Positions 5,513 to 24,901 of a stretch of 64,000 bases of DNA are shown here, piece by piece. Source of the DNA: Eledone cirrhosa. Lineage: Eukaryota. The notes under the pieces are model-generated. The model saw only the letters and a program-made list of their open reading frames with translations, had not been told where the DNA came from and did no database searches. Where the stretch lies: contig OZ024740.1 of assembly GCA_964016885.1 (NCBI GenBank), positions 257,300,001 through 257,364,000 on the forward strand. The letters run 5' to 3'. The position numbers were made by a program, and so were the translations under genes. Numbering within the stretch: the first letter of the stretch is position 1; every line of letters starts with the position of its first letter.

Positions 5513-5913
5513 AAATGAAATTTCGTTTCATTCTTTTCCATTTATCATTTTCGGTGCACCCGGCCGACTAACTCACTCGATATGCAAATTAGGCTGCTCA
5601 ACCGTTAATATGCATAAGGAAAGTATATACTTTCAAACGTTCAATCATCTGACAGAAAGGTATACGATGCTGACGATAGCTTGAAACTAGTACATCGTTC
5701 CTGTGTCAGTGTTGAACAAAAGGGCGACGATGGTTGCCAAGCACTGTACGGCGTAATCCGGGCTGTTTGTTTACAAACAAACCGAGCATTATCATAAATG
5801 TTTGGTAAACCCATACGTACATTTATATATATGTGCATGTATGTATATATATATATATATATACATAATACTGTACGTCTGTACACATATATGTATGTAC
5901 GTATAAATACTTA
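5513..5913 (+). mobile_element. HHR repeat family A (retrozyme-like), one monomer
   Basis: Same unit as 7337-7857 and 23060-23857. The HHR at 5664-5698 has a deletion in stem II. Embedded in (TA)n. Confidence 0.75.
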
Positions 5914-6040
5914 TATATATATATATTTATATATATATACATATTTCTACCCGCCGAAATGCGATTCTCTCTGAATTTATATATATATATATATATATAT
6001 ATATATATGTGTGTGTGTGTGTGTGTGTGTGTGTGTGTAT

Positions 6041-6549
6041 ATACAATATAGAGAGGAAAAACACAGGAGAGAGTGTTTTCATTTACAGGATATTAACCAC
6101 CAGCGTGTAGAGAATATAAGCTAAGAGAGTGTAGGAGTAATATAATAATTAAAAGGATAAATTAAAATGAAAAACCTACCTCATAACTAAATCGCACTAA
6201 GGGCGGCTTATTCTGTTCATACTACCGGTCACAGCCACGCGAGCGTATTTCGCTCTATTCGCACGTGCCACAGGTCAGTTACTATAGTTATCTTTAGTAG
6301 TGAGGACAATATCAGCTCAAGCACTTGGTGATTATCCACAAAGCTGAACCCACTATACGGTGAGAAACTCTCCAGGTGAGTCTGTACTAGTGCTATTTAG
6401 TTATGAGATAGGTCTTCATTTAAATTCACCCTTTTAATTATTATATTTTTCCTACACCTCTCTTAGCTTATATTCTCTTCACGCTGGCGGTTATAAATCC
6501 TGTAAACGAAAACACACTCTCCTGTGTTTTTCCTCTCTATATTTTGTAT
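6041..6549. mobile_element. Foldback element with about 160-bp imperfect inverted arms
   Basis: 6041-6199 is the diverged reverse complement of 6388-6549. Confidence 0.75.
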
Positions 6550-6659
6550 TTTAAAGTGCCCATGGAAACTCTGTCCTTTGAGCTCATTGAATTACAGGAT
6601 TATACGCGAGTCCTTTACTCCGTTATTTTACATTATATATATATATATATATATATATA

Positions 6660-6805
6660 TATATATATATATGTGTGTATGTGTGTGTATATATGTACAT
6701 ACATATATGTGCACAGACGTACAGTAGTATGTATATATATACTTATATTTAGGTATCAGCCGTACTAAGAGTGAGAAATAAAATTTCGTTTCATTCTTTT
6801 CCATA
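6660..6805 (+). mobile_element. HHR family A, 3' fragment
   Basis: ...acttatatttaggtatcagccgtactaagagtgagaaataaaatttcgtttcattcttttcca matches the family end-to-start junction. Confidence 0.6.
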
Positions 6806-6819
6806 TATATATATATATA

Positions 6820-21169: not shown

Positions 21170-22140
21170 AGACATAAATATTAAAATGGTCAATTCTTTA
21201 GATGTAAATTTAGACGTTACCATAAATGAGGGAAGCACGTCTGGTACGTAGATAAAATCAATCTACCCGAAAACAATATTTAAGTCAATAGTTGAAGATA
21301 TATCTAATAGAATTAGCACCTTTTCTTATAATGAAACTAACCGAAATGCACCACATTATAATAAAGCTTTATTTCGATCAGGCCACACTAATAAAATTGG
21401 ATATATAGATGGTAGTATAAATGAGGGTAGACCAAATAATATAATATCATATAATATGGCAATGAATAAATACAAATTAAAATACCATAATGATAATCTA
21501 AATAACCGTACAATAGATAGGAATACACAGACAAATACCAATATTATAGAGAATAATAGTAAGAAACATATTAAGAAAAATAAAATAAACACACATATAT
21601 GCTTACTCTTTAAACCCCGCATAAAACCAGCAACCCAAAATATTATGACCATTAAATCTAAACAACCAGAAACCCCCACAGATAAATCTACATACACAAT
21701 TAAGCAGCATAATAATATAAACATAAGCCAAAATAACAACAATAAAAGAAATTGCAGACGATTAAACACATTTTGAACCCACCATTTAATTTTAAAATAT
21801 TTCTAATATACGTAAGCTCTAATTCTCTATAAAAGTTAGGAAATTCTCCCCTGGGCATAGATACCATAGACTAATTAATAAAATACAATTAAACAGTTTC
21901 GCAACTACACCTAATATAGCCGCAAAATTGGCTTTTTGGAACGCTAGAAAATAAAAAAAACACATCAAATCATTTCAAATGAATATTAGCTCTCCGCGAT
22001 TGAATTTATCCAACAAAAATAACGTTTCAAATAATAATACTAATGACCTAATACCTGATAATATAAATAGCATACAAATTACAGCTAACTCATCAAATAA
22101 TATGAATCACAACACATATATATATATATACTATCACAAA
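21170..22140 (+). mobile_element. PLE (Hydra-clade-like) RT thumb remnant with Asn-rich insertions
   Basis: MVNSLDVNLD, ISNRISTFSYNE, APHYNKALFRSG, PPFN and GHRYHRLINKNTIK motifs occur in the expected order. Confidence 0.7.
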
Positions 22141-23059
22141 AATACTGCATCTCTATGATGTAGTGTTTGTGCATAGTAGCCACGAAACTGCGCAGTCGAG
22201 GATGTTGAGAATATTGGGTATATATATATTTTTATTTAATTTATGTTTAATGTTTCTTCTTTCTTTATAATGTATTATATATATATATATATATATATAT
22301 ATATATATGTGTTTATATATAAATGTGTATGTGTGTGTATGCATAAATATATATATTATATATATATATATATATATATATATATATATATATATATATA
22401 TATATATATATATATGTATATATATTTGTTTAAATATATAGGCACCCGTTTACGTGTGTTTTACTGAGATACAACCGGTCCTGGCATTGATAAATATGCT
22501 GGGTCCGTCAACTCCTTATTATATATATGTATATATATTTAAGGTAAAAAGAGTATTAACACAGATAATCAGTACCGTATAAATATATATATAAACAGAA
22601 GAGGTGTACGGGATAACATTTTGGGTTACCTTAGCAAAGGTTAAGATTAATCTGTACCGAGGAATTCTACAGCGTATGGTAGTAGTAGACTCAACAAATT
22701 ATTTACTTACTTCGGTGTTTTGGAGGGTAGTTCCTGAAAGTTCCGAGATTAGTAGATTTTGGAATAGTAAAAACAGGTGAAATGTATTTGAATATATTAA
22801 GTTTCAACAAGGTAACATTCATATTCATCTGATGCAATCCAACAATTATTGATTAAAGAAAAAAAAATGTACTGCAGAGCTGGTGTTTATATTACAAATC
22901 ATGAAATTTCACACAATGTATATATATATATATATATATATATAATTTAAGCCCATATATATATATATATATATATATATTTATATATATATATATATAT
23001 ATATATATATGGGCTTAAATTCTATATATATATATCGGCTTAAATGATATATATATATA

Positions 23060-23857
23060 AATTGTAAAAATGAAACGAAATTTCATTTCTCACTCATAGT
23101 ACGACTGTTACTTAAATATACATACATATATGTATACAGACGTACAGTAGTATGTATATATATATATACATACAAGCACACACATATATATGTACCTATG
23201 GGTTTACCGAACATTTATTCTAATGCTCGGTTTGTTTGTAAACAAACAGCCCGAATTAAGTCGTACAGTGTCTAGCAACCATCGTTGCCCTTTTGTTCAA
23301 CACTGACAAAGGAACGATGTTCTAGTTTCAAACTTATTAGCTATCGTCATCATCGAATACCTTCCTGCCAGATGATTGAACGTCTGAAAGTATATACTTT
23401 CCTTATGCATATTAACGGTTGAGCAGCCTAATTTGCATATCGACAAAACATTTGCATATGTTCAAAAGGGCAACGATGGTTGCTAAACACTGTACGGCTT
23501 AAATCGGTCTGTTTGTTCCTTTTTTCCATTTATCATTTTCGGTGCGCCCGGCCGACTAACTCACTCGATATACTTTCAGACGTTCAATCATCTGGCAGGA
23601 AGGTATACGATGCTGACGATAGCTAATAAGCTTGAAACTAGTACATCGTTCCTTTGTCAGTTTGAACAAAATGGCAACGATGGTTGCTAAACACTGTACA
23701 GCTTAATTCGGGCTGTTTGTTTACAAACAAACCGAGCATTATAATAAATGTTCGGTAAATCCATACGTACACATATATATGTGTGCTTGTATGTATATAT
23801 ATATACATACTACTGTACGTCTGTATACATATATGTATGTACGTGTACATACTTATA
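23060..23857. mobile_element. HHR family A, head-to-head pair with patchwork centre
   Basis: Minus copy 23060-23443, plus fragment 23460-23518, plus copy 23519-23857. Confidence 0.8.
23582..23667 (+). ncRNA. Intact type I hammerhead ribozyme (family A)
   Basis: ACGATG-CTGACGA-T-AGCT-AATA-AGCT-T-GAAA-CTAG-TA-CATCGT (23607-23649). Stem I extends through AAGG/CCTT, CTGGCA/TGTCAG and GTTCAA/TTGAAC. Confidence 0.85.
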
Positions 23858-24304
23858 TATATATATATATATATATATATATATATATATATATATATAT
23901 ATATATATATATATATATTAATGTCTCTCTTCCTCTTTATGGTACAGTCTATGAACAAAAAAAGCAGAAATATCAAATCAAACAATCCTAAATATTTGTT
24001 GTTTTTCTTGTCTGTCACGAGGAGTCGTCAATGATTTTGGGATGTCATGTACATGGTTAAATCCCTTCATAGCGGCGGGGCATGAACTGGCCTGTAAACA
24101 AGGGGGACAGAGTAAGAGGACGGTTTGACCTGTAGGTGCCAAGCCGGTAAGGCGTTAACAGAGAAATCTTTACAGCTATCTTTCATTTATAGAGGCGGTA
24201 ACCTACAATTCAAAGAAGTAAGAAAGTAATTTAAGCACGTAAGAATCATGTAAGAATCAGTTGCTAATCTTCCTTAGGTTAACCCGGAGTACTAACACGG
24301 ATAA

Positions 24305-24637
24305 GCGATATAATAGTGTTTATTTCAAGCGTTAACACATGTTTCATCGCCTGATTATAAATTAATTCTTGTCTTGAAACCGCTATCATCAATAATGGAT
24401 TGACAATCGTGATATTTTATTTTAAATACATAACGTAATATAACTATCAGGTGAATTTTTAAAATACTGATACGTATTTTGAAAATTGACCTGGTAGCTA
24501 TATTATTTTAGGTATTTAATATCGAATTTCACAACTTTCAATTGATTATTGATGACAGCGGTTTCTAAACAAGAATCAATTCCTAATCAGGCGATGAAAC
24601 ATGTGTTAATGCTTGGAATAAACCCTATCATATCGCA
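24305..24637. mobile_element. Foldback element with about 100-bp diverged inverted arms
   Basis: ttaacacatgtttcatcgcctgatta (24332) versus taatcaggcgatgaaacatgtgttaa (24584). Confidence 0.7.
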
Positions 24638-24901
24638 TTTCACAGTCTGTATACATATATGTATGTACGTGTACATACTTATATTTAAGTAACAGCTGTA
24701 CTAAGTGTGAGAAATGAAATTTCGTTTCATTTTTTCCATTTATATATATATGATTTAAGCCGATATATATATATATATATATATAATTTAAACCCATATA
24801 TATATATATATTTATATATATATATATATATGGGCTTAAATTATATATATATATATATATATATATTTAAAAGAATAGAGGTGTAACACACGAGTTGTGA
24901 T

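What the first reader, a model, noticed from the sequence alone, without database searches (positions are those of the whole stretch)
5513..24742. Non-coding, about 440-nt hammerhead repeat family with circularly permuted ends: candidate cephalopod retrozyme
Seen: copies at 5513-5913, 6660-6805, 7337-7857 (two), 23060-23857 (two) and 24645-24742, mostly in (TA)n, with no coding remnant. The motif aaatgaaatttcgtttcatt.ttttccatttat starts the 5513 copy but ends the copies at 6775, 7340, 23065 and 24712, after catacttatattta..gtactaag.gtgag. The unit therefore closes on itself. Established: animal non-LTR retrozymes are short HHR-bearing tandem units that yield circular RNAs, and minimal type I HHRs with palindromic stem III occur in PLE pLTRs. 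Inference: a circular or multimeric RNA mobilised in trans by PLE reverse transcriptase.
Basis: partly seen in the sequence, partly recalled or inferred. Interest (0 to 1): 0.8.

Follow-up and report, generated by a model that had tools for sequence, protein, structure and literature searches.

The report
Gene-less Penelope derivative carrying a hammerhead
The repeats are pieces of an abundant, roughly 430-base, protein-less unit with a hammerhead ribozyme motif that is related to the tail end of a Penelope-type jumping gene and is likely copied by that gene's enzyme, which would explain its shifted ends without needing the circular RNA that was proposed and that remains untested.

Summary
The family is real: 8 arms at 5 loci, each 3' end abutting (TA)n, with a type I hammerhead whose core is intact in 2 of the 4 arms that cover it and in over 98% of reads at the two positions where one arm is damaged. 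But the paired copies are head-to-head inversions, not tandems: 0 of 5 loci holds a head-to-tail dimer, the defining retrozyme feature. Arms stop at two sites 60 nt apart, one arm of each inverted pair at or near each. That is the published Penelope-like (PLE) signature of tail plus inverted truncated copy. The unit is homologous, through a relative at 4014-4365, to the 3' end of a Hydra-clade PLE remnant in this window, and its hammerhead has the Hydra-type layout. Best reading: a high-copy non-autonomous Hydra-clade PLE derivative in an octopod-like host. A circular intermediate is possible but not shown; no RNA run was available. I found no description of this family, but the kind is known.

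The parts
5513..5913 (+). Arm A: near-complete unit, from boundary b2 (motif start) to b1; hammerhead lacks 8 nt of stem II; (TA)n on both sides
6660..6726 (-). Locus B inverted arm, ends near b1 with a garbled last 10-20 nt
6727..6804 (+). Locus B body: short arm ending at b3 (with tail)
7337..7594 (-). C-left arm: begins 1-4 nt after the predicted hammerhead cleavage site, ends at b3 (with tail)
7595..7857 (+). C-right arm: begins at the 5' strand of stem I, ends at b1 (no tail)
7612..7642 (+). Type I hammerhead core, intact, in C-right
23060..23445 (-). D-left arm: unit position 65 to b3; two core substitutions and a 14-nt deletion at b1, all absent from most reads
23463..23517 (+). Captured internal fragment (unit 205-259) at the D inversion junction
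23522..23855 (+). D-right arm: unit 22 to b1, internal deletion of about 45 nt
23592..23660 (+). Best hammerhead: long interrupted stem I, core at 23613-23643, 3-bp stem II closed by a U-U pair, palindromic helix III, predicted cleavage after 23643
24645..24741 (+). Arm E: 5'-truncated, ends at b3
24682..24741 (+). The 60-nt tail b1-b3 (b2 at 24712); two predicted hairpins, the second ending at b3
   Evidence: z -4.2 here; -2.6, -2.3 and -0.75 in the other three tails
4014..4365 (+). Related old element F5, collinear with unit 1-308; degenerate hammerhead near 4174-4218
   Evidence: (score 260, 0 of 500 shuffles)
18110..19100 (-). Hydra-clade PLE remnant: broken C-terminal endonuclease with CxCx5C linker (about 18330-19100) and 3' UTR (18110-18345) homologous to F5; not adjacent to any arm (nearest 3960 nt)

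Best explanation
This is an ORF-less, self-closing hammerhead unit of about 430-440 nt, homologous to the 3' end of a Hydra-clade Penelope-like retroelement, and it is likely spread in trans by a Hydra-type reverse transcriptase/endonuclease that would cut (TA)n and start copying at one of two fixed internal sites in the unit's RNA. Shown: the anatomy, the two 3' end sites (b1 and b3, 60 nt apart), (TA)n at all 3' ends, head-to-head arm pairs with one arm per site, high abundance, homology to a Hydra 3' region. Inferred: the unit arose when a 3'-terminal fragment (last codons of the ORF through the 3' UTR, plus about 90 nt of microsatellite-like DNA and 30 nt of unknown origin) became duplicated head to tail at a source locus. 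Read-through RNA from such a locus holds the motif twice. Priming at b3 gives arms with the tail, priming at b1 gives arms without it. When both target strands are primed, the two truncated cDNAs join head to head (loci B, C, D). Copy A is a b1-primed copy that ran back almost one unit. The hammerhead is predicted to cleave only as a dimer, so the dispersed single and inverted copies are probably silent as ribozymes; cleavage may trim some templates but need not be part of the cycle.
For: 3' ends: 4 of 8 arms end within about 2 nt of b3, 3 of 8 exactly at b1, 1 near b1; all 8 abut (TA)n. 3 of 3 inverted loci pair a b3 arm with a b1 or near-b1 arm. The two arms of C and the two of D are the 2 closest of 10 arm pairs (6 and 7 differences against 11-19; 1 in 45 by chance, post hoc), so each pair came from one source. 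Published PLE signature: inverted 5'-truncated copy, optional tail at either end (PMC8557442, PMC3846280); tail equals the stretch between two RT start sites and both strands are cut and extended (PMC11167929). Homology chain: A to F5 score 260, 0 of 500 shuffles, top of 1410 other windows; F5 to the PLE remnant's 3' UTR 68% over 249 nt, E 3e-22. The remnant has the Hydra CxCx5C linker. Hydra families insert in (TA)n (26 of 27 rows) and many of their hammerheads have a T after the first core box and before the second, with a helix III starting ACT, as here. Reads: 42,580 of 12,467,656 in X20 and 9,538 contigs in X1 lay on the stretch; the sequence upstream of the tail is the unit's own 3' end (2,268 reads, agreement 0.86; 51 contigs); the motif joins the unit start without an ORF in a contig of organism B.
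Against: The autonomous partner was not found; the direct match between the unit and the remnant is weak (z 2.4-3.3 overall; a 36-47 nt core at 0 of 300 shuffles). The published octopus Hydra-1_Obim has a different hammerhead. The tail is 60 nt against the published 30-40. Homolog searches with the endonuclease fragment found nothing and Pfam did not recognise it, so the Hydra assignment rests on motifs and by-eye comparison. No source tandem was seen. 605 loose-end rows were hidden, so a minor ORF-linked class cannot be excluded. The match of the motif to the ORF's last codons is only z 2.8-3.3.
Confidence: 0.68

Rival explanations
1. A true non-LTR retrozyme: tandem source arrays are transcribed, dimeric hammerheads cut out 430-440-nt monomers, these circularise, and a PLE enzyme copies the circle. 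The dispersed arms are its offspring.
For: The unit closes on itself with no ORF. Three arms run across the cleavage site for 330-400 nt and none exceeds one unit. The core letters are kept in over 98% of reads at two tested positions. One joint row (23066 to 23547, 84 reads, 24 starts, side 25) fits read-through from tail into the next unit. C-left starts 1-4 nt after the cleavage site. Monomer-rich retrozyme families derived from pLTRs are described (bioRxiv 10.64898/2026.07.22.740005).
Against: 0 of 5 loci has a head-to-tail dimer. No listed read or contig piece spans tail and next unit convincingly. Non-core positions are about as uniform in reads (92-99%), so core conservation shows no selection. 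Cleavage was not needed for PLE insertion in vitro (PMC11167929), and 8 of 9 Xenopus dimers tested did not cleave (the preprint). Ends cluster at b1 and b3, not at the cleavage site.
Confidence: 0.2
2. The arms are simply 5'-truncated ends (pLTR plus tail) of an autonomous Hydra element whose ORF lies upstream of the motif.
For: The unit start aligns with the end of a Hydra ORF through F5. Summed contig depth falls about 5-10-fold over unit 22-71 relative to the body, as 5' truncation would give. Truncated ends are the commonest PLE form.
Against: A tail should be the start of the element's body, yet here it repeats the unit's own start. Upstream of the motif the listed reads and contigs show the unit's own 3' end, and none of the 24 listed loose ends points to coding sequence at the motif. 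No arm lies within 940 nt of a coding remnant.
Confidence: 0.09
3. A DNA-level element (foldback, MITE- or Helentron-like) or local microsatellite-driven inversion, with a chance hammerhead.
For: Inverted pairs and terminal hairpins; other inverted-repeat elements occur nearby.
Against: 5' truncation with fixed 3' ends, unequal arms, the hammerhead (0 of 2000 shuffles) and homology to a PLE 3' UTR all point to retroposition.
Confidence: 0.03

Closest known systems
Hydra-clade Penelope-like elements, incl. Hydra-1_Obim of Octopus bimaculoides (Craig et al. 2021, PMC8557442)
   Same: (TA)n targeting, 3' hammerhead of the same layout, inverted truncated copies, optional tail; sequence homology to the 3' region of a Hydra remnant in this window.
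   Different: No ORF; unit closes on itself; tail 60 nt; hammerhead sequence differs from Hydra-1_Obim; no non-autonomous Hydra family was seen in the parts of that paper I read.
Metazoan non-LTR retrozymes (Cervera and de la Pena 2020, PMC7229834; Li et al. 2026 preprint 10.64898/2026.07.22.740005)
   Same: Short ORF-less unit, type I hammerhead with weak palindromic helix III, pLTR-like origin, dispersed monomers.
   Different: No tandem repeat seen; dominant form here is the PLE-style inverted pair with two 3' ends; circular RNA untested; slightly above the 170-400 nt of the tested invertebrate circles.
Non-autonomous Chlamys PLEs such as MRC1 (PMC8557442)
   Same: ORF-less PLE derivative resembling the autonomous family at its 3' end.
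   Different: Different clade and host; those lack canonical hammerheads and often form head-to-tail multimers.
PAc Poseidon of Anolis (Frangieh et al. 2024, PMC11167929)
   Same: Two reverse-transcription start sites at a stem-loop give the tail; AT-rich target; both strands primed.
   Different: Autonomous; hammerhead overlaps the ORF start, start sites lie inside the ORF; here the mechanism is inferred from copy ends only.

Membership tests
Non-LTR retrozyme | Type I hammerhead in the unit | tested here: met
   core letters in over 98% of reads at 2 positions; Rfam gave no match
Non-LTR retrozyme | Short unit without protein-coding capacity | tested here: met
   about 430-440 nt, no conserved ORF
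Non-LTR retrozyme | Head-to-tail tandem of at least two hammerhead-bearing units, in this window | tested here: not met
   0 of 5 loci
Non-LTR retrozyme | Tandem arrays elsewhere in the genome | tested here: inconclusive
   No genome held; one joint row compatible with read-through, none decisive; the RAD library is cut inside the motif
Non-LTR retrozyme | Self-cleavage and monomeric circular RNA | not testable with these tools
   No RNA holder listed
Non-autonomous PLE derivative | Sequence homology to the 3' end or pLTR of an ORF-bearing PLE | tested here: met
   Chain A to F5 to remnant; direct match weak
Non-autonomous PLE derivative | PLE insertion anatomy: fixed 3' ends, 5' truncation, inverted 5' copy, optional tail | tested here: met
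   compared with PMC8557442 and PMC3846280
Non-autonomous PLE derivative | Propagates without its own ORF | tested here: met
   ORF-less continuity in arms A and D-left and in a contig of a second organism; minor ORF-linked class not excluded
Non-autonomous PLE derivative | Identified autonomous partner sharing the ends | tested here: inconclusive
   Only a distant remnant; Hydra-1_Obim hammerhead differs
Hydra clade (partner) | (TA)n insertion preference | tested here: met
   8 of 8 arm 3' ends
Hydra clade (remnant at 18330-19100) | C-terminal GIY-YIG endonuclease with CxCx5C linker, no CCHH | tested here: met
   Read from the translation against the text and Hydra sequences seen; no profile or tree test; Pfam silent
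Autonomous PLE | RT-endonuclease ORF between pLTRs | tested here: not met
   No ORF in or beside any arm

The most novel reading that the evidence does not exclude
A very abundant cephalopod circle-forming retrozyme born from a Hydra PLE 3' end, whose genomic copies record the PLE mechanism in vivo: every inverted insertion pairs one arm from each of two start sites (twin priming by an enzyme dimer), and some arms stop at the hammerhead cleavage site (C-left here, and the arm of a second family at 30702-30778), giving fossil evidence that PLE hammerheads cut their RNA in the germ line. With probably tens of thousands of copies, both points could be counted directly in an octopus assembly.
Probability: 0.2. 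Interest if true: 0.6.

Novelty: new member of a known kind. Interest (0 to 1): 0.33.

Why it matters
The kind is known: hammerheads in PLE ends, tails, inverted copies and ORF-less derivatives are all published. What this adds is a probable non-autonomous Hydra-clade family at very high copy number in a cephalopod, a group for which my searches found no retrozyme report. Its many copies offer a cheap test of two open points in PLE biology: whether inverted insertions come from priming at both start sites, and whether the hammerhead cleaves in vivo. It also shows that permuted ends in a PLE-derived repeat are not by themselves evidence of a circular RNA.

Tried and rejected
No genome is held for this window, so no genome-wide consensus or tandem search was possible. 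Rfam: no hammerhead among 97 matches, all but one to miRNA models on AT-rich repeats. The repeat finder was swamped by microsatellites. Run search: no RNA holder listed; 15 other organism labels had small shares, of which only X5 was laid. Metagenome scan with the hammerhead motif: 0 matches. Homolog searches with the endonuclease fragment: none at E<=0.001 (weak searches); Pfam on 10 frames found only RVT_1 in a LINE; the clade of the remnant therefore has no profile-level test. tblastn found no second endonuclease remnant in the window. Read ends at 23079, 23082 and 23433 in X20 fall on AATT and the loose ends near 23078 and 23407 have low agreement, so I treat them as library cuts, not element ends (enzyme identity is my inference). 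Contig ends at 23315-23320, beside the cleavage site, are explained by a subfamily branch 30 nt downstream and were not used. No pile-up of read ends at the cleavage site is listed (threshold one fifth of depth). Five DNA or name terms in the Craig 2021 supplement: three unit motifs 0 hits, one chance hit inside an ORF. No similarity of the unit to family F2, F3 or the remnant at 20800-22120. Splice-like signals in the unit were noticed but cannot be tested without RNA. Earlier-findings look-ups by sequence and place returned nothing.
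Full report
OBSERVATION. BLAST of each copy against the window and an alignment resolve the family into 8 arms at 5 loci: A 5513-5913(+); B, an inverted arm 6660-6726(-) joined to a body 6727-6804(+); C-left 7337-7594(-) and C-right 7595-7857(+); D-left 23060-23445(-) and D-right 23522-23855(+), with a captured 55-nt internal piece between them; E 24645-24741(+). The five long arms are 88-96% identical. 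The paired copies are head-to-head, not tandem. B's inverted arm ends near b1. All 8 3' ends run into (TA)n. A (401 nt, b2 to b1) plus the 30-nt b1-b2 piece gives a unit of about 430-440 nt that closes on itself. No arm has the motif twice.

THE RIBOZYME. A descriptor search found a type I hammerhead at 23613-23643 and 7612-7642. With stricter settings it gave 4 hits in the window, 0 in 60 of 60 shuffled windows and 0 in 2000 shuffles of the unit core. The core boxes used are recalled standard knowledge. Stem I is long and interrupted, stem II has three pairs under a U-U pair, and helix III is a 6-nt palindrome. Such helices are described as needing a second copy to fold (PMC4209133, parts 1-2 of 4 read). 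Folding energy alone is unremarkable (z -1.6) and Rfam had no hammerhead hit among 97. A lacks 8 nt of stem II; D-left has two core substitutions.

READS. No genome is held. The one run search listed 22 runs, none RNA. I laid 4 of them on 23015-23585, which covers the whole unit once. In X20 (RAD reads, same species label as the best holder) 42,580 of 12,467,656 reads were laid; in X1 9,538 contigs, in X4 125, in X5 (another organism) 113. This is no copy number. If the window's density of 5 loci per 64 kb were typical of a 2.8-Gb genome, there would be of the order of 100,000 loci, which is an extrapolation. D-left's defects are private: the first core letter is restored in 10,144 of 10,260 and 6,487 of 6,593 reads, the letter before the cleavage site in 11,617 of 11,723 and 7,701 of 7,737, and in all three contig sets. 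Non-core private differences are restored at similar rates (92-99%), so this shows the family norm, not selection. Upstream of the tail the reads show the unit's own 3' end (2,268 reads, agreement 0.86; 51 contigs in X1). The motif joins the unit start directly: 787 of 818 reads carry the motif letter at 23519, and an X5 contig of depth 71 bridges motif, 40 letters of unit start and body. Both halves of the closure are thus widespread, but no listed molecule clearly spans both; the joint 23066-23547 (84 reads, 24 starts) implies at most a few letters beyond b2. X1 depth over unit 22-71 is 0.1-0.2 million against 0.5-1.9 million in most body bins, partly an edge effect. Only 40 of 115 letter rows, 15 of 52 joints and 24 of 629 loose ends were shown. 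The RAD library appears cut at AATT inside the motif, which limits end mapping.

ORIGIN. The window holds two decayed PLE ORFs. The one at 18330-19100(-) ends in an endonuclease with a CxCx5C linker, a YIG motif, a CxxC and no CCHH, the features given for the Hydra clade (PMC8557442, section 11). By eye it resembles the Hydra sequences in that paper's supplement. Pfam and two homolog searches did not recognise it. Its 3' UTR matches an old element F5 at 4014-4365 (68% over 249 nt, E 3e-22; z 27.9). F5 aligns collinearly with unit 1-308 of A (score 260, 0 of 500 shuffles, z 9.3; best of 1410 other windows, next non-overlapping score 162). By segment: unit 58-140 z 8.3, 1-50 z 3.3 (9 of 1000), 141-310 z 3.2 (14 of 1000), 311-401 z 0.4, tail b1-b3 z 0.2. 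F5's start aligns with the remnant's last codons at z 2.8 (11 of 1000). The direct match between unit and remnant is a 36-47-nt core (0 of 300) and z 2.4-3.3 overall. So the unit is a distant relative of a Hydra 3' end, probably starting near the ORF's last codons, with about 120 nt of added sequence. In the supplement, 26 of 27 Hydra families list (TA)n as target and many hammerheads share this unit's layout; the octopus family Hydra-1_Obim has a different one and is not the partner. No arm is attached to an ORF (nearest remnant 940 nt away). Host: the best named relative of a LINE frame in the window is from Argonauta hians (66%), the next from Acanthosepion pharaonis (49%); 2 of 120 listed rows name an organism. 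That supports a cephalopod, probably an octopod.

MECHANISM. PLE insertions are described as 5'-truncated, often with an inverted truncated copy at the 5' end and a 30-40-nt tail at one end (PMC8557442, passages; PMC3846280, passages). In vitro, an anole PLE cuts AT-rich DNA on both strands and starts reverse transcription at two internal sites that bound the tail; hammerhead cleavage is not required (PMC11167929, parts 1-2 of 4). The window fits: two 3' ends 60 nt apart around predicted hairpins (z -4.2, -2.6, -2.3, -0.75 in the four tails), and 3 of 3 inverted loci with one arm per end. The arms within C and within D are the two closest of 10 pairs, so each pair was copied from one source. 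The RNA must hold the motif at both ends, which needs a head-to-tail source locus or a circle; the DNA cannot tell these apart. One hint of cleavage: C-left starts 1-4 nt after the cleavage site, and the inverted arm of a second hammerhead family starts 4 nt after its own, 2 of 4 inverted structures. In C, stem I offers microhomology that explains the junction without cleavage; in the second family it does not. Reads show no dominant end class there.

COMPARISON. It works like a non-autonomous PLE and shares the unit type of retrozymes. It cannot be filed as a non-LTR retrozyme: tandem repetition is part of the definition (PMC7229834, passages and Discussion; preprint 10.64898/2026.07.22.740005, parts 1-3 of 5) and was not met here.

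NOVELTY. Six full-text searches showed no description of this family or of a cephalopod retrozyme. Known context: a Hydra family in O. bimaculoides; 31 recently active PLE families in O. vulgaris (PMC13282606, parts 1-2 of 3; its supplement was listed but not read and its library was out of reach); 235 hammerhead loci in giant squid (PMC6962438, passage). The family may sit in such libraries under another label. Three earlier scan notes on other genomes reached similar PLE readings; they are unchecked and add no support.

VERDICT. Real; a new member of a known kind; circle unproven. Interest 0.33.

Noticed in passing
window 30378-30780: Second hammerhead family F2: canonical type I hammerhead at 30543-30508(-), fold z -3.3, with an inverted arm at 30702-30778 that starts 4 nt after the cleavage site and lacks the body's last 45 nt. 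3' fragments at 8446-8550, 13310-13414 and 44540-44644. No similarity to the main family.
   Followed up: partly
window 4174-4218 (+) and about 18228-18277 (-): The hammerheads of F5 and of the Hydra remnant both read U at core position 3 and A at position 8, like the U3-A8 variant reported in Schistosoma PLEs (PMC4209133); both are damaged. Read by eye.
   Followed up: partly
window 20800-22230 (+): Second decayed PLE ORF (RT, thumb, asparagine-rich linker), Hydra-like by eye, followed by a degenerate hammerhead-like stretch near 22150-22205.
   Followed up: partly
window 6820-7145, 7912-8075, 22464-22521: Another (TA)n-associated repeat that flanks locus C on both sides in inverted orientation; class unknown.
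   Followed up: no
window 22940-23055 and 24745-24865: D-left and E are both followed by the same (TA)n-interspersed short repeat; it has about 2% of the tail's depth in X1, so it is probably a separate minisatellite or a local duplication.
   Followed up: partly
window 8160-12914 and 42862-47612: Inverted duplication in several blocks at 96-100% identity, 30-35 kb apart; recent duplication or assembly artefact.
   Followed up: no
window 6040-6545 and 24285-24640: Two short elements with long terminal inverted repeats (MITE-like).
   Followed up: no
window 50000-63600: Three tandem decayed LINE copies with RT and endonuclease frames; best named relative from Argonauta hians.
   Followed up: partly
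window 5578-5592 and 4085-4099: The most conserved block between the unit and F5 holds an octamer-like motif (label recalled), possibly a promoter or protein-binding site.
   Followed up: no
window 40487-40541 (+), 17560-17605 (+), 12500-12540 (+): Further hammerhead-like cores, the first passing the strict descriptor; not examined.
   Followed up: no
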